Both the position numbers and the translations under genes were made by a program. DNA of 64,000 bases from Bacteroidota bacterium. Its GTDB lineage: Bacteria > Bacteroidota > Bacteroidia > AKYH767-A > 2013-40CM-41-45. Shown piece by piece: positions 19,675 through 32,350 of the stretch. Every line of letters starts with the position of its first letter. The stretch's first letter is position 1. The notes under the pieces were generated by a model. That model saw only the letters and a program-made list of their open reading frames with translations. It had not been told where the DNA came from and made no database searches. Location: contig JANPNV010000168.1 in NCBI GenBank assembly GCA_031427625.1, positions 3,898 to 67,897 of the forward strand, in the 5' to 3' direction.

Positions 19675-20160
19675 TTAAAATTGAACGTCATTCGAAATTA
19701 CAAACTTTTCCATGCCGACATTGGAGTTGAATTCTTCCCAATTAAGCGTAAATATTCGTTGCAGTCTGTTTACCAGTTCTTGAAAGGTAGAAGGTTTTGT
19801 AAAATAAAGGTTCGCTCCTTTGATTAATGATTCTCGAATATCATTGGAATGAGAAGATGTTGAGTATACGATTATACACAAATTCGATAATCGTTGATTA
19901 TTACGAATCTCTTCAAGACATTCAAACCCGTTTTTGCACTGCATTTTCAGGTCCAGAAAAATTAAATCAGGCAGAGGATTATTTACATTTTTAAAATGGT
20001 TCATTAAGTCAGCACCTCCGAGAAAACTTTGAAGCGAAACGCTGATACCTGCCTGTTCTATGGCATCTTTAAAGAGAATGATGTCATCTGCATCATCATC
20101 AGCAATAAGAATATCGTAGGGTGATTTTTTTAATCTCATTTGAGAGATCAAAGAAAGCAA
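19675..20160 (-). CDS. Stand-alone response-regulator receiver domain protein (CheY-like)
   Basis: DILIADDDADDIILF carries the acidic pocket, and LIFLDLKMQCKNGFE the phospho-acceptor Asp region. Residues YSTSSH and a conserved Lys (YFTKP) are present. There is no output domain. The likely start is MRLKK at 20139. Confidence 0.75.
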   Translation of the reverse strand: MLSLISQMRLKKSPYDILIADDDADDIILFKDAIEQAGISVSLQSFLGGADLMNHFKNVNNPLPDLIFLDLKMQCKNGFECLEEIRNNQRLSNLCIIVYSTSSHSNDIRESLIKGANLYFTKPSTFQELVNRLQRIFTLNWEEFNSNVGMEKFVISNDVQF

Positions 20161-20200
20161 AATTAAACGCCGTTACAAGCAAAACTCGAAACATAGAGTA

Positions 20201-21223
20201 TTAACTATGGTATTTACTCATATAGTCTGAAAATGTAATTCTGGATATTTCTTGTAAAATTCCAGATAACTGTTTCAGCGATGTTCCCTTCGTCATGATT
20301 CCTAATAAATAAGGGTCGCCTGCAACGAAAACAATTCCGAATTCATGAAGCTGAGCCTTGTTGTCAATTATACGCTCACCGAATTTATGGGCGATTTCAA
20401 TTTTATCATCAACTCCATTGCGTATGCCATCCGTATAAGTACTTTGTGTAAGTAGCTTTAATCCGTATTCTGAATATTCCGGACGTACGTAAGTCGCATT
20501 AAAGAGAACTCTGTAAAATTTTGAATAGTCAACTGCCGTTATATAATATTCTCCAAAAGCTGGCGGATTTGGTAAGTTTAAATCTGTGAATAAATCTTTA
20601 TATATGTTCTGATTCATATTCTGACTTAAGAGCAATGTAGCATCGTTGTCAGAATTTTTTATCATATAAAGTAGTAGTTCCTTTACGGTGTAATAGCTGT
20701 TTTCCTTTAAAGCAAAGTCTACAATGTTTGCATGGTTTCCTTCAGAAAAATGGCGGGCAAAATAAATCTTTTTATTTAAAACACTAGGATTAGACTCGGC
20801 TTCTTTCAGATAGGTAATAAGATATATAATCTTACTCATACTTGCAGGATTATATGTCTCATTTGGGTTTATACAAAACCAGGATCCGCCATTTAGTTTT
20901 CTGAAATAAACAGTTACCTCATCCACCTGCTGGCTTTTCTTTACCTCCCAAATATATTGCTCAATCTTATTTCGTAACCCCTCTAGTGCGGGACTCTGAG
21001 TATTTAGGTTTGCCAGGATGAGGGGCTGTACATAATTGTAATTTTTGATTCTAATTTGCTCCATATTTGATGGACAGTTATCAATTATTTGGACTGGGGA
21101 AGTAGTCTCTTTATTCTTGCCAATTCTAGGAATGGCATATGTAGCAATAAACACAAGAAGACATGAAATTGTCAGAGTAAATATGGATACTTTAGTTTTC
21201 ATCAATTGAATTATTATGTTCAC
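20201..21223 (-). CDS. Secreted serine hydrolase of the class-A beta-lactamase fold
   Basis: N-terminal signal/TM segment. An SxxK motif (SMSK), an SDN motif (NSDNDAT) and a KTG-like HKFG motif are present. Function (beta-lactamase versus other PBP-like hydrolase) is not determinable from sequence. Confidence 0.5.
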   Translation of the reverse strand: MNIIIQLMKTKVSIFTLTISCLLVFIATYAIPRIGKNKETTSPVQIIDNCPSNMEQIRIKNYNYVQPLILANLNTQSPALEGLRNKIEQYIWEVKKSQQVDEVTVYFRKLNGGSWFCINPNETYNPASMSKIIYLITYLKEAESNPSVLNKKIYFARHFSEGNHANIVDFALKENSYYTVKELLLYMIKNSDNDATLLLSQNMNQNIYKDLFTDLNLPNPPAFGEYYITAVDYSKFYRVLFNATYVRPEYSEYGLKLLTQSTYTDGIRNGVDDKIEIAHKFGERIIDNKAQLHEFGIVFVAGDPYLLGIMTKGTSLKQLSGILQEISRITFSDYMSKYHS

Positions 21224-22424
21224 TTTAAAGGAGATTAGCTCATTAATCTTTTATAAGCAATAGGAAATTTCGCAAATTTCCTATTTTCCCGGCTGATATT
21301 GAGTTGAATTTGGTAACAGATACTAAGAAAACACCCTTTACTGGACTATTTACTTATCAAAACGTGTTAACCACATGGATGATAATTTATCTCGATTTGG
21401 TTGGGTGTATTCTTTTATAAGTTTACTATATGCAAAGATAAACGGATTCCTTTCTAATTCAATCTTTCTATGATTACAAAGCAAAATATTTTTTATCGTG
21501 AATTCGGGTTTATGTTCTATATTTCTAATGATCATGCAGCGAATGCATCCTCATTGAACTATATAGACTCCAAATAGTTCATTTATAAGAAGATTCCGGC
21601 TCTATTGTAAGCGAATGACAGGTTTATATTCTAGGATACCAAGGTGTAATTCTGTTATAAAATTTTCGACATTATACTTTAAGAGAGGAATTTAAAGATC
21701 TGCAATTACCCCAATGAGTCCTATTAAGTTTCCAGATATTTCTTGTTATTCATATTTTCTGTTTTTCGTACGCGGCCCAGTAATAAAATGGATTGGCTAA
21801 TGTGTTTTTGACTTCACAACATTAATGAAACATATTTTAACTATACATTATGTAAATTTTTGATTTTTTATATATCACAAAAAAACAATAAACACACGTC
21901 AAACATTTCTGAAACACTCTTGTATTAATCTTGTATGAGGTTTCGCACAAAATAATATTCCTTACAAATTAGTTTTTCGCCGGCAGTATTTATAAAGAAG
22001 GGCAGACATATATTTGTTTTTTCTACGATAAAATATTTTTTATCAAGGATCTTTAGGTAGCATTCTACTAAGTCAGAACAATGGATTTAATTAAGAAATA
22101 AAAAAAGTAATAATAATTTTACGTTTGTGAACGTAGAAATCATTTTGAACAACAAAAGTCAACTTAATGGCTATTCGATTTAATTATTTTAATGAAATTA
22201 CTTTCATTTGTTAAAGTTTAGAATTGTGTTTAGTGAAATTAATTATAGGTTTTATTGCGTATATAAAATATTTTTTACTTAATAGTTATGATTTTTTAAA
22301 AAAAAATGGTATCTTTTGCCTAATAAAAAATTAAGTCATCGTTATTATTTGTATTCAAAGGATTAATAATGAGTTAATGAATCAATTTTTTAGTAATAGT
22401 TAAACAATTTAAAACAAATTAGAC

Positions 22425-22730
22425 ATGGCAAATAATGGAAAAATTATCGCAGCTCTATTCTTAGGAGCCGCAGCTGGAGCAGCACTTGGAGTTTTGTTTG
22501 CACCTGACAAAGGAAGCGAAACCCGCAAGAAAATTGCAGGAAAGGCATCAGAATTAGGAGATGAGTTATCTGAGAGAATCAACAAAGGCAAGGATGCCAT
22601 AAGTGATTTAAAGGAAAGGGTAATGCATAAGGCAGAAGATATTAAATCAAGCATTCAGAACCGTGCAGGTGAGTTTTCTGGAAACGAAGAGTCTCGCAGT
22701 CGTGCGAAAAATTCATCTCATACAGTTTAA
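22425..22730 (+). CDS. YtxH-domain stress protein
   Basis: The N-terminus MANNGKIIAALFLGAAAGAALGVLFAPDKGSETRKKI matches the YtxH family signature (GxxxGAAxGxxxGLLFAPxxGxETR). The Ala/Gly-rich antisense ORF 22409-22654 is an artefact of this gene. Confidence 0.8.
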   Translation: MANNGKIIAALFLGAAAGAALGVLFAPDKGSETRKKIAGKASELGDELSERINKGKDAISDLKERVMHKAEDIKSSIQNRAGEFSGNEESRSRAKNSSHTV

Positions 22731-31397: not shown

Positions 31398-31437
31398 CTT
31401 TCGTTATTCATTGTTCAACAGCAGAAGTTGAACGGTT

Positions 31438-31463
31438 TAAAAAAAGCCACGGTATCCGCGGCT
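31438..31463 (-). terminator. Hairpin + U7 between the lipoprotein gene and the ABC gene (minus strand)
   Basis: On the minus strand agccgcgg-aua-ccguggcu followed by UUUUUUU. The stem is 8 bp with one G-U wobble. Confidence 0.55.
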
Positions 31464-31486
31464 TTGAATTGATATTTTTTGTCAGA

Positions 31487-32350
31487 TTATCTGGTAAGAT
31501 CCATTCTGACAGGGGAAACAACAGCACTTAACTTTGCCATGTTTTCCTTGCTAAGATCTTCAGGTGATTTAATTCCATCGAATACAGTCTTAATTCCTTT
31601 AAGTTGAACAAGAAGGGATGCAGAACTTGGATATTTTGTAAGATCTGAAAACAGATTGATTAAATTATCGAGGTATAATTTTTCGTTGTAAATTTTTTCG
31701 ATAAGATTTGTATTCGTTGATGTGCGTCCAGTAGATTTTGTAAGTTCAATGCTTAGGTACATCGCTTCGATAACGCTTCCTGCGAGAACATGTGAGGCAA
31801 CTTCAACGCGGCGATTTGAGCGGAGGTAATTATCCGTTTCAGAATACGCTCTGTCAATGATCTTTACCAGAGAATCTTTGTTCTGTTCGTTATCCATGAA
31901 GCTTGAAGTAAACTTGTCGAACGTTTCCTGAACATTAAGTTTCACTGCCATTTTTTTTGATGTAGAATAATAATCCAGCAAATCCTGATTCTGTCCGTAG
32001 AAGGCAGCATAAGCCATGTCTATACCATAGATTCCATAATTCACAGCTTTCTTAAAACCACTCGAATAATCGGAAGATCGATTTGGCGGATTAAGGAGAT
32101 CCTTGCTGAATGGAAGTTTATTCTGATAGATAGCATTGATCATCTCAAGTGGAGAAGGAAGATTAGCAATTGTATAGAAAAATTTAAAGTCGAGCATTTC
32201 GTCGGCTTTCTGCTTTGCAGAATCCTTCACAGTTGTAGTTGTGTCGGTAAATTCATCAGTCGTATTTTCTGGCTTCTGATTATTGCTGCATGATTGGCTA
32301 AGAATAAAAACTGCAGCGAGAAGAAACGATATCGAATAATGCTTTTTCAT
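31487..32350 (-). CDS. Hypothetical lipoprotein
   Basis: Lipoprotein signal MKKHYSISFLLAAVFILSQSC. It lies upstream of the ABC gene on the same strand, with a hairpin/U-tract between them. Confidence 0.55.
   Translation of the reverse strand: MKKHYSISFLLAAVFILSQSCSNNQKPENTTDEFTDTTTTVKDSAKQKADEMLDFKFFYTIANLPSPLEMINAIYQNKLPFSKDLLNPPNRSSDYSSGFKKAVNYGIYGIDMAYAAFYGQNQDLLDYYSTSKKMAVKLNVQETFDKFTSSFMDNEQNKDSLVKIIDRAYSETDNYLRSNRRVEVASHVLAGSVIEAMYLSIELTKSTGRTSTNTNLIEKIYNEKLYLDNLINLFSDLTKYPSSASLLVQLKGIKTVFDGIKSPEDLSKENMAKLSAVVSPVRMDLTR

What the first reader, a model, noticed from the sequence alone, without database searches (positions are those of the whole stretch)
19675..32350. Stress-signalling neighbourhood: orphan SiaB/SiaC-like partner-switch pair next to an FHA-ABC exporter, with a CHASE3 kinase, orphan receiver and duplicated YtxH genes
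Within about 12 kb lie the following genes. There is a receiver-only response regulator and a beta-lactamase-fold hydrolase. There is a YtxH / holin-like / hypothetical operon. There is a CHASE3 sensor kinase with no cognate regulator, a coiled-coil lipoprotein, and a second YtxH gene. There is a translationally coupled SiaB-like kinase and SiaC-like (DUF1987) phosphoprotein pair. Convergent to these is an ABC exporter carrying an FHA (phospho-Thr-binding) domain. In Pseudomonas, SiaB and SiaC operate with the SiaA phosphatase and SiaD diguanylate cyclase. Neither of those is present here. An FHA domain fused to an exporter is a plausible reader of a phospho-Thr mark written by SiaB on SiaC-like targets. 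The output of this module is therefore unknown and may be transport- or envelope-stress-related rather than c-di-GMP.
Basis: partly seen in the sequence, partly recalled or inferred. Interest (0 to 1): 0.6.

Follow-up and report, generated by a model that had tools for sequence, protein, structure and literature searches.

The report
Partner-switch pair wired to an ABC exporter
A small kinase and phosphoprotein pair, known from Pseudomonas for controlling a biofilm signal, is here kept next to a membrane exporter and a lipoprotein across many Bacteroidota, which suggests it switches transport rather than c-di-GMP synthesis.

Summary
The gene calls are correct. 27361-27915 encodes a SiaB-family GHKL kinase and 27921-28301 a SiaC/DUF1987 protein with the phospho-acceptor Thr68 intact. 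28365-31397 encodes an ABCG-type exporter.

The exporter's "FHA" is below threshold by sequence (Pfam E=0.13). No Arg, Ser or His is conserved in that domain, so a classical phospho-Thr reader is unlikely.

The 12-kb "stress neighbourhood" is not the conserved unit. The conserved unit is four genes: SiaB, SiaC, the exporter and an uncharacterised all-helical lipoprotein (31487-32350). Among 80 Bacteroidota loci found through SiaB, 45 carry the exporter, in at least four gene arrangements. In 34 loci a PP2C phosphatase lies within 300 nt of SiaB. No convincing GGDEF gene appears.

The window and its closest relatives have no linked phosphatase; a YtxH gene sits where more distant relatives carry it. 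The exporter-lipoprotein pair also occurs without SiaB/SiaC, so the pair is an accessory regulator.

Best reading: a SiaABC-type partner switch whose output is an exporter. This is a new variant of a known kind. The substrate and the docking site are unknown.

The parts
27361..27915 (+). SiaB-family GHKL protein kinase (184 aa; Pfam DUF6272)
   Evidence: NF038262 scores 152.8 bits (cutoff 85) and PF19788 125 bits. Match to P. aeruginosa SiaB chain 6kko_A at E=4.9e-14. E62, N66 and the GGAGLG box are invariant in 28 homologues.
27921..28301 (+). SiaC/DUF1987 STAS-like phosphoprotein (126 aa). The phospho-acceptor Thr68 codon is at 28122-28124.
   Evidence: PF09345 scores 139.8 bits. Match to P. 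aeruginosa SiaC 6kko_C at E=5.5e-15, with YFNTSSSK aligned to YLNTSSIK. Position 68 is Thr in 69 of 71 sequences and Ser in 2.
28365..31397 (-). ABCG-type half-transporter exporter (1010 aa) with an N-terminal regulatory module and a C-terminal extension
   Evidence: ABC_tran and ABC2_membrane. Residues 250-748 align with ABCG1 and ABCG2 across the nucleotide-binding and transmembrane domains. Adjacent to SiaB/SiaC in 45 of 80 related loci.
30948..31397 (-). Exporter residues 1-150: TerB-like helical domain
30678..30947 (-). Exporter residues 151-240: degenerate FHA-like beta domain
31487..32350 (-). Co-conserved all-alpha lipoprotein ('lipo287', 287 aa) with no family assignment
26771..26974 (+). 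YtxH2. It occupies the slot between the Cbp1-like lipoprotein gene and SiaB, where loci L081 and L082 carry a membrane PP2C phosphatase.
   Evidence: PF12732 scores 57.5 bits. L081 and L082 have the order Cbp1-PP2C-SiaB-SiaC-ABC-lipo287. No PP2C remnant is detectable in 26000-27500. A YtxH gene lies directly upstream of SiaB in L165 as well.

Best explanation
Genes 27361-32350 form a four-gene module. A SiaABC-type partner switch, made of the GHKL kinase SiaB and the STAS-like phosphoprotein SiaC, has as its output an ABCG-type exporter that works with a periplasmic helical lipoprotein.

**Proposed mechanism, by analogy with SiaC-SiaD**
- Unphosphorylated SiaC docks on the exporter's cytoplasmic N-terminal module (the TerB-like domain plus the degenerate FHA-like domain, or the adjacent nucleotide-binding domain) and changes its activity.
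- SiaB phosphorylates SiaC on Thr68 and releases it.
- A PP2C phosphatase resets the switch in response to signals.

**Status in this genome**
- In most relatives the phosphatase is encoded directly upstream of SiaB.
- In the window's clade it is unlinked or lost, so here the switch is either served by a distant phosphatase or biased towards phospho-SiaC.

**Shown**
- Family membership of SiaB and SiaC.
- Intact catalytic residues and phospho-acceptor residue.
- The folds of the exporter's N-terminal domains.
- Multi-arrangement gene linkage across orders.

**Inferred**
- Direct SiaC-exporter binding.
- The docking site.
- The direction of regulation.
- The exported substrate, which is unknown.
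For: **Family membership and key residues**
- Family scores are above curated cutoffs.
- Matches to the P. aeruginosa SiaB and SiaC crystal-structure sequences.
- The Y-x-N-T68-x-S-x-K motif is essentially invariant.
- The SiaB E62/N66/G-box is invariant.

**Linkage in SiaB-anchored loci**
- Of 80 SiaB-anchored Bacteroidota genome loci, 76 have SiaC, 45 the exporter (44 including its N-terminal 250 residues) and 36 the lipoprotein.
- Of 58 loci with full flanks, 35 have the exporter and 37 a PP2C.
- Linkage survives rearrangement. The arrangements seen are co-directional SiaB>SiaC>ABC>lipo287 (37 loci; the SiaC-ABC gap is about 25-35 nt in L026 and L047), convergent (7 loci, as in the window), lipo287>ABC>SiaB>SiaC (L083) and lipo287>x>SiaB>SiaC<ABC (L015).

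**Phosphatase and alternative outputs**
- SpoIIE/PP2C phosphatases lie within 300 nt of SiaB in 34 loci.
- A GG[DE]EF-like motif occurs in only 3 of the 160 related loci, and none lies beside SiaB/SiaC. Ten tested neighbours in loci without the exporter are unrelated housekeeping genes.

**Exporter architecture**
- The N-terminal module always sits at residues 1-260 of proteins of about 1000 aa. There are 317 cluster representatives with E<=1e-10.

**Literature**
- SiaC activates the adjacent SiaD only when unphosphorylated, and the authors propose that DUF1987 proteins modulate adjacent proteins (PMC8457831).
- The Thr68 biochemistry is described in PMC7647112.
Against: - No interaction, phosphorylation or transport data exist for this module.
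- The exporter-lipoprotein pair, with the same TerB/FHA-like N-terminus, occurs without SiaB/SiaC within about 6 kb in 20 of 35 assessable metagenome loci. The N-terminal module is therefore not specific to SiaC-linked exporters, and SiaB/SiaC is dispensable or encoded elsewhere.
- 23 of 58 full-flank SiaB/SiaC loci have no exporter nearby.
- The window has no phosphatase in 64 kb, so reversibility is unproven here.
- Both locus sets are the best 80 hits of larger candidate sets, and the first is anchored on SiaB, which biases the proportions.
Confidence: 0.6

Rival explanations
1. SiaB writes phospho-Thr68 on SiaC, and the exporter's FHA domain reads that mark. Phospho-SiaC, rather than SiaC, is then the form that engages the transporter.
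For: - An FHA fold is really present at the exporter N-terminus.
- The FHA-bearing ABC exporter Rv1747 of M. tuberculosis is regulated through Ser/Thr phosphorylation (PMC3138270).
- Linkage of the pair with the exporter is strong.
Against: - The Pfam FHA match is below threshold and covers only the C-terminal half of the profile.
- Across 38 homologues no Arg, Ser or His is conserved anywhere in residues 145-250. The loops that would carry the GR and SxxH motifs are variable, and the position before G178 is mostly Asp or Asn.
- The same domain is present in exporters that have no SiaB/SiaC nearby.
- In the only characterised system, phosphorylation abolishes target binding (PMC8457831).
Confidence: 0.12
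2. Same pathway, but an indirect link. SiaB/SiaC and the exporter are co-transcribed and co-regulated because they serve one envelope process. SiaC's direct target is another protein, such as a regulator encoded elsewhere or the linked phosphatase or sensor proteins, and not the exporter.
For: - 23 of 58 full-flank SiaB/SiaC loci have no exporter, so SiaC must have other targets in those genomes.
- The exporter often lacks SiaB/SiaC nearby.
- In Marinilabiliales the operon also encodes many signalling proteins.
Against: - The exporter-lipoprotein pair is the only recurrent non-signalling neighbour of SiaB/SiaC in the 80 loci.
- It occupies the operon position that SiaD holds in Pseudomonas.
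- It carries a dedicated cytoplasmic regulatory N-terminus with no other obvious ligand.
Confidence: 0.2
3. In this particular genome the switch is degenerate. With no phosphatase, SiaC is permanently phosphorylated or the pair is decaying, and the exporter runs unregulated.
For: - No PP2C in 64 kb, and no remnant in the slot where L081 and L082 carry one.
- The closest relatives (L001, L164-L166) also lack a linked PP2C.
Against: - Both genes are intact with all key residues.
- The locus is 99.7-99.8% identical in three independent metagenome assemblies.
- The four genes are retained across a clade whose SiaB sequences have diverged to 56-59% identity, which argues for purifying selection.
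- Only a fragment of the genome is visible here, so a PP2C may lie outside the window.
Confidence: 0.1
4. The adjacency is incidental synteny with no functional link.
For: In the window the genes are convergent, not co-transcribed.
Against: The exporter is present in 45 of 80 loci from Flavobacteriales, Chitinophagales, Cytophagales, Marinilabiliales and Bacteroidales. It appears in at least four gene orders, mostly as a tight co-directional operon.
Confidence: 0.02

Closest known systems
SiaABCD of Pseudomonas aeruginosa (PP2C phosphatase SiaA, kinase SiaB, DUF1987 phosphoprotein SiaC, diguanylate cyclase SiaD)
   Same: - Homologous SiaB and SiaC.
- Identical Thr68 motif.
- A PP2C lies upstream of SiaB in most relatives.
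- An output gene lies immediately downstream of SiaC.
   Different: - The output is an ABCG-type exporter plus a lipoprotein, not a GGDEF cyclase.
- Scores are below NCBI's equivalog cutoffs (SiaB 97.8 against 225; SiaC 89 against 150).
- The phosphatases have different sensor architectures: REC-SpoIIE, TM-SpoIIE, TM-GAF-PAS-SpoIIE and Reg_prop-Y_Y_Y-SpoIIE.
- There is no phosphatase in the window.
Rv1747/PknF of Mycobacterium tuberculosis (FHA-bearing ABC exporter controlled by Ser/Thr phosphorylation; PMC3138270, PMC5549992)
   Same: - An ABC-2/ABCG-like exporter with N-terminal FHA-fold regulatory domains.
- Encoded next to a protein kinase.
- Regulated post-translationally.
   Different: - Rv1747 has two canonical phospho-Thr-binding FHA domains and a Hanks-type kinase that phosphorylates the transporter itself.
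- Here there is one degenerate FHA-like domain behind a TerB-like domain, a GHKL kinase that (by homology) phosphorylates a separate STAS-like protein, and a lipoprotein partner.
RsbU-RsbV-RsbW and SpoIIE-SpoIIAA-SpoIIAB partner-switching systems (established knowledge; also the HsbA/HsbD and BgrV/BgrR examples cited in PMC8457831)
   Same: The logic of PP2C phosphatase, GHKL kinase and STAS-fold phosphoprotein. The phosphorylation state of the small protein decides which partner it binds.
   Different: Classical systems release a sigma factor held by the kinase, or control a diguanylate cyclase. Here no sigma factor is linked, and the conserved partner is a transporter.
TerB-domain proteins (PF05099; PDB 2ou3, 2h5n)
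   Same: Residues 1-150 of the exporter adopt the TerB-like helical fold. Homologues carry PF05099 hits.
   Different: - Here the domain is fused to an FHA-like domain and an ABC exporter.
- The window protein itself gives no Pfam TerB hit.
- The function of TerB domains is itself poorly defined.

Membership tests
SiaB-family protein kinase (NF038262 / Pfam DUF6272) | Profile score above the curated cutoff | tested here: met
   NF038262 scores 152.8 bits against 85. PF19788 scores 125.2 bits against 26.6.
SiaB-family protein kinase (NF038262 / Pfam DUF6272) | GHKL catalytic Glu, Asn and G-box. The catalytic Glu is E61 in P. aeruginosa SiaB (PMC7647112). | tested here: met
   E62, N66 and G146-G151 are invariant or nearly invariant in 28 homologues.
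SiaB orthologue (equivalog NF038264) | Score of at least 225 bits | tested here: not met
   97.8 bits. It is a family member, not an orthologue by NCBI's criterion.
SiaB-family protein kinase (NF038262 / Pfam DUF6272) | Phosphorylates SiaC on Thr68 | not testable with these tools
   Requires a kinase assay.
SiaC / DUF1987 (PF09345) | Profile score above the gathering threshold | tested here: met
   139.8 bits against 24.5. The equivalog NF038265 scores 89 against 150, which is not met.
SiaC / DUF1987 (PF09345) | [quoted passage not shown] | tested here: met
   FNTSS aligns with LNTSS of 6kko_C. The codon is at 28122-28124. Position 68 is Thr in 69 of 71 sequences and Ser in 2.
SiaABCD system | PP2C phosphatase (SiaA) encoded with the pair | tested here: not met
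   None in the 64-kb window. It is met in 45 of 80 related loci.
SiaABCD system | GGDEF diguanylate cyclase (SiaD) as the adjacent output | tested here: not met
   No GGDEF family in the Pfam scan of the window ORFs of at least 100 aa (E<=1e-5). In the 160 related loci, GG[DE]EF-like motif matches occur in only 3, none beside SiaB/SiaC (a motif heuristic). Ten downstream neighbours scanned with Pfam contained none.
FHA domain (PF00498) | Sequence profile above the gathering threshold | tested here: not met
   13.1 bits against 20.7, E=0.13. Only profile positions 30-65 are matched.
FHA domain (PF00498) | FHA beta-sandwich fold | tested here: met
FHA domain (PF00498) | Conserved phospho-Thr-binding residues: Arg of the GR motif, Ser and His of SxxH, and Asn (established knowledge of FHA domains) | tested here: not met
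   No Arg, Ser or His is conserved at 80% or more anywhere in residues 145-250 across 38 homologues. Only the NG turn is kept (N204, G205). This is judged from sequence conservation and the model's strand map, not from a residue-level superposition.
TerB domain (PF05099) | TerB helical fold or profile match | tested here: inconclusive
ABCG / ABC-2 type exporter | Nucleotide-binding domain followed by an ABC-2 transmembrane domain in one chain, with intact Walker A, signature, Walker B and H-loop motifs | tested here: met
   ABC_tran at residues 268-417 and ABC2_membrane at 564-750. Residues 250-748 align with ABCG1 residues 84-589. GSSGAGKST, SGGQRKR, LFVDEPTSGL and VIHQPS are readable in the translation.

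The most novel reading that the evidence does not exclude
A DUF1987/SiaC phosphoprotein directly gates an ABCG-type exporter through a TerB plus phospho-blind FHA module. This would be the first partner-switching system whose output is a transporter. It would also be the main output of SiaABC-type signalling in Bacteroidota, a phylum with little c-di-GMP signalling. In Marinilabiliales the switch would additionally be driven by a CheR/CheB/CheD methylation system acting on GAF-PAS proteins rather than on chemoreceptors.
Probability: 0.35. Interest if true: 0.7.

Novelty: new variant of a known kind. Interest (0 to 1): 0.55.

Why it matters
- SiaABC is so far known only as a controller of one diguanylate cyclase in Pseudomonas. 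Chen et al. (PMC8457831) speculated that DUF1987 proteins regulate whatever is encoded next to them.
- This locus family gives that idea a concrete, testable second case: a phospho-switch protein coupled to an ABC exporter, conserved across several Bacteroidota orders.
- If it is direct, it would add partner switching to the short list of ways bacteria regulate ABC transporters post-translationally.
- It would assign a role to three uncharacterised pieces: the TerB/FHA-like N-terminus, a 287-aa lipoprotein family with no annotation, and a small secreted protein called c6 here.
- It would also point to an envelope export process under signal control in Bacteroidota.
- Cultured carriers exist (Anaerophaga thermohalophila DSM 12881, Labilibacter sediminis CG51, Carboxylicivirga spp.), so the idea can be tested.

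Tried and rejected
- **Rfam and tRNA scans of the whole window.** Nothing found.
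- **Promoter and terminator consensus scan of 26300-32700.** Promoter-like sites are at the level of shuffled sequence. One weak terminator-like hairpin lies just after the ABC stop codon, at 28356-28341. The result is not informative, and Bacteroidota promoters are not covered by the scan.
- **PP2C pseudogene remnant between Cbp1 and SiaB.** No hit even at E=100. A protein-remnant search in both intergenic gaps found only the YtxH2 gene itself.
- **The whole 12-kb neighbourhood as a unit.** Rejected. REC, bla, YtxH1, holin-like and Cbp1 each hit only 1-2 of the 80 loci. CHASE3-kinase hits in 9 loci are generic kinase similarity. The same order recurs only in close relatives such as L165, which lacks the CHASE3 kinase.
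- **Separation of SiaB/SiaC-linked and unlinked exporters by N-terminal sequence.** Unlinked ones fall in one sub-branch mixed with linked ones, so no diagnostic signature emerged.
- **Literature.** Searches for SiaB/SiaC or DUF1987 together with ABC transporters found no prior description.

Full report
**1. What is in the sequence**

- 19675-20160 (-): receiver-only response regulator.
- 20201-21223 (-): Beta-lactamase2-fold protein.
- 22425-22730: YtxH. 22838-23224: Phage_holin_3_6-like protein. 23196-23630: overlapping hypothetical gene.
- 23709-25139 (-): CHASE3-HisKA-HATPase kinase.
- 25493-26353: coiled-coil lipoprotein of the Cbp1 family (NF052320, 246.7 bits).
- 26771-26974: second YtxH.
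- 27361-27915: SiaB-family kinase (NF038262, 152.8 bits against a cutoff of 85).
- 27921-28301: SiaC/DUF1987 protein (PF09345, 139.8 bits).
- 28365-31397 (-): convergent 1010-aa ABC_tran plus ABC2_membrane protein.

Both members of the pair score below NCBI's equivalog cutoffs for the Pseudomonas proteins (97.8 against 225, and 89 against 150). They are family members, not orthologues.

Pfam scans of the other window ORFs of at least 100 aa show T9SS cargo proteins, an ECF sigma/anti-sigma pair and housekeeping genes. They show no SpoIIE/PP2C and no GGDEF. A purpose-built PP2C HMM and tblastn also find nothing. The organism is an uncultured member of the Bacteroidota. The same locus is 99.7-99.8% identical in three independent metagenome assemblies.

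**2. The pair looks functional**

- The SiaC-like protein aligns end to end with P. aeruginosa SiaC (6kko_C, E=5.5e-15). It places FNTSS on LNTSS, so Thr68, the residue phosphorylated by SiaB (PMC7647112), is conserved. Its codon is at 28122-28124.
- Across 71 SiaC sequences the motif Y65-x-N67-T68-x-S70-x-K72 is essentially invariant, with Thr in 69 and Ser in 2.
- The SiaB-like protein matches P. aeruginosa SiaB (6kko_A, E=4.9e-14). It keeps the GHKL Glu, Asn and GGAGLG box, which are invariant in 28 homologues.

**3. The exporter's N-terminus**

- By sequence the FHA call fails. PF00498 gives E=0.13 and 13.1 bits against 20.7, over the C-terminal half of the profile only.
- An AlphaFold model of residues 1-260, built on 24 aligned sequences, has mean pLDDT 80.9 and about 90 over residues 73-240. 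It shows two domains.
- So the fold is FHA-like, but the chemistry is not. In 38 full-length homologues the residues conserved in 145-250 are G178, Y195, G197, N204, G205, G219, Y231, Y232 and D/N234. No Arg, Ser or His is conserved. The loops that would carry the GR and SxxH motifs are the most variable part.
- The core (residues 250-748) aligns with ABCG1 and ABCG2 through both the nucleotide-binding and transmembrane domains.
- The TerB/FHA-like module always sits at residues 1-260 of proteins of about 1000 aa. There are 317 cluster representatives with E<=1e-10.

**4. What is co-conserved**

*Loci anchored on SiaB.* A scan of one genome per species with an alignment of SiaB homologues returned 80 loci, nearly all titled as Bacteroidota.

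| Window protein searched by tblastn | Loci with a hit (of 80) |
|---|---|
| SiaC | 76 |
| Exporter | 45 (44 include its N-terminal 250 residues) |
| Gene 31487-32350, a 287-aa lipoprotein with no family ("lipo287") | 36 |
| REC, bla, YtxH1, holin-like, Cbp1 | 1-2 each |

Among the 58 loci with full flanks, 35 have the exporter.

The linkage persists through rearrangement:

- 37 loci: co-directional SiaB>SiaC>ABC>lipo287, with SiaC-ABC gaps of about 25-35 nt in L026 and L047.
- 7 loci: convergent, as in the window.
- L083: lipo287>ABC>SiaB>SiaC.
- L015: lipo287>x>SiaB>SiaC<ABC.

The carriers include Flavobacteriales, Chitinophagales, Cytophagales, Marinilabiliales and Bacteroidales. Cultured strains among them are Anaerophaga thermohalophila DSM 12881, Labilibacter sediminis CG51 and several Carboxylicivirga species.

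*Loci anchored on the exporter.* The reciprocal scan with the exporter N-terminus in metagenomes gave 80 loci. Only 35 have enough flank to judge. Of these, 15 carry SiaB/SiaC and 20 do not. lipo287 is upstream in 50 of the 62 loci with enough upstream sequence.

A third small secreted protein, called c6 here, accompanies the exporter-lipoprotein pair in 78 of the 160 loci. It is absent from the window clade.

The stable core is therefore exporter plus lipoprotein, with c6 in many lineages. SiaB/SiaC is an accessory regulatory add-on in a large subset.

**5. The missing phosphatase**

SpoIIE/PP2C phosphatases occur in 45 of the 80 SiaB-anchored loci, and in 34 of them lie within 300 nt of SiaB. 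Their sensor architectures differ:

- REC-SpoIIE next to a histidine kinase (L003, L007, L020).
- A 335-aa membrane SpoIIE (L081, L082).
- TM-GAF-PAS-SpoIIE preceded by CheR (two copies), a CheB-domain protein, CheB, CheD and GAF/PAS proteins (Marinilabiliales).
- Reg_prop-Y_Y_Y-SpoIIE.

L081 and L082 have the order Cbp1-PP2C-SiaB-SiaC-ABC-lipo287. That is the window's order, except that the window has YtxH2 where they have the phosphatase. No remnant of a phosphatase gene is detectable there.

The window's nearest relatives (L001, L164-L166; SiaB 56-59% identical) also lack a linked PP2C. Their upstream genes vary, while the four-gene unit and the downstream dCMP deaminase and S41 protease genes stay.

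L165 shares the whole REC-bla-YtxH-holin-hyp-Cbp1-YtxH order but lacks the CHASE3 kinase. The 12-kb "neighbourhood" is therefore lineage synteny, not a module.

**6. Mechanism**

In Pseudomonas, unphosphorylated SiaC binds and activates the adjacent SiaD. Phosphorylation of Thr68 by SiaB prevents this, and SiaA reverses it. The authors proposed that DUF1987 proteins generally modulate adjacent proteins (PMC8457831; PMC7647112).

In these Bacteroidota loci the slot downstream of SiaC is filled by the exporter. No convincing GGDEF gene is found in any related locus.

The best-supported model is a SiaABC-type partner switch whose output is the exporter. The TerB/FHA-like N-terminus is the likeliest docking site.

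It is not excluded.

Direct binding, the direction of regulation and the substrate are all inference. lipo287 gave no structural clue. Literature searches found no prior description of SiaB/SiaC coupled to a transporter. The nearest analogue for an FHA-bearing ABC exporter is Rv1747/PknF.

**7. Verdict**

The genes are right. FHA is a fold only. The TerB domain and the lipoprotein were missed.
The output is indeed an exporter and not c-di-GMP. The phospho-Thr-reader mechanism and the 12-kb framing are not supported.
- This is a new variant of a known kind of system. It is moderately interesting and directly testable in cultured relatives.

Noticed in passing
window 21224-22424: A 1.2-kb stretch between the beta-lactamase-fold gene and YtxH1 with no ORF above 61 aa. 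It has no Rfam hit and no protein remnant when compared with relatives. In relative L165 the same junction is only about 160 nt.
   Followed up: partly
L047:670-9935 and L026:28-9929 (also about 20 other Marinilabiliales/Bacteroidales loci): Upstream of PP2C-SiaB-SiaC-ABC lies a conserved block: CheD, CheB (with REC), a GAF-PAS protein, two CheR, a CheB-domain-only protein and a GAF protein. No MCP, CheA or CheW is visible in the 10 kb. This looks like a Che-type methylation system feeding a GAF-PAS-SpoIIE phosphatase.
   Followed up: partly
L022:9971-11477 (also L023-L025, L030, L033, L040, L041, L045, L052): Single 370-aa proteins with two tandem DUF6272 (SiaB-like) domains followed by a SiaC gene. 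They have no exporter and lie next to Reg_prop/Y_Y_Y/SpoIIE phosphatases. This is a second architecture of the switch with an unknown output.
   Followed up: partly
window 23709-25139: The CHASE3 histidine kinase is absent at the corresponding place in L165, which otherwise shares the window's gene order from the receiver gene to superoxide dismutase. It is likely an insertion in, or a loss outside, the window lineage.
   Followed up: partly
L047:15081-15557 and 77 other related loci; absent from the window: A secreted Cys-containing protein of about 147 aa (called c6 here, with no Pfam or NCBIfam family). It accompanies lipo287 and the exporter, either after lipo287 or between lipo287 and the exporter. 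The window clade has only an 89-nt gap there.
   Followed up: partly
window 42748-50756: An ECF sigma factor and an RskA_C anti-sigma factor, followed by a DUF4331 protein with a T9SS sorting domain, a TPR protein, HupE/UreJ, YceI and a DUF5777 beta-barrel. This may be a sigma-controlled metal or envelope cluster.
   Followed up: no
window 1907-13887: Four consecutive large proteins with Por_Secre_tail (T9SS) sorting domains, one of them carrying several PKD repeats. This confirms a Bacteroidota with type IX secretion.
   Followed up: no
window 36463-39009: A YhdP/AsmA-like 848-aa protein next to superoxide dismutase and a small HisKA-HATPase kinase (39081-40229). This synteny is conserved with L161-L163 and L165.
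   Followed up: no
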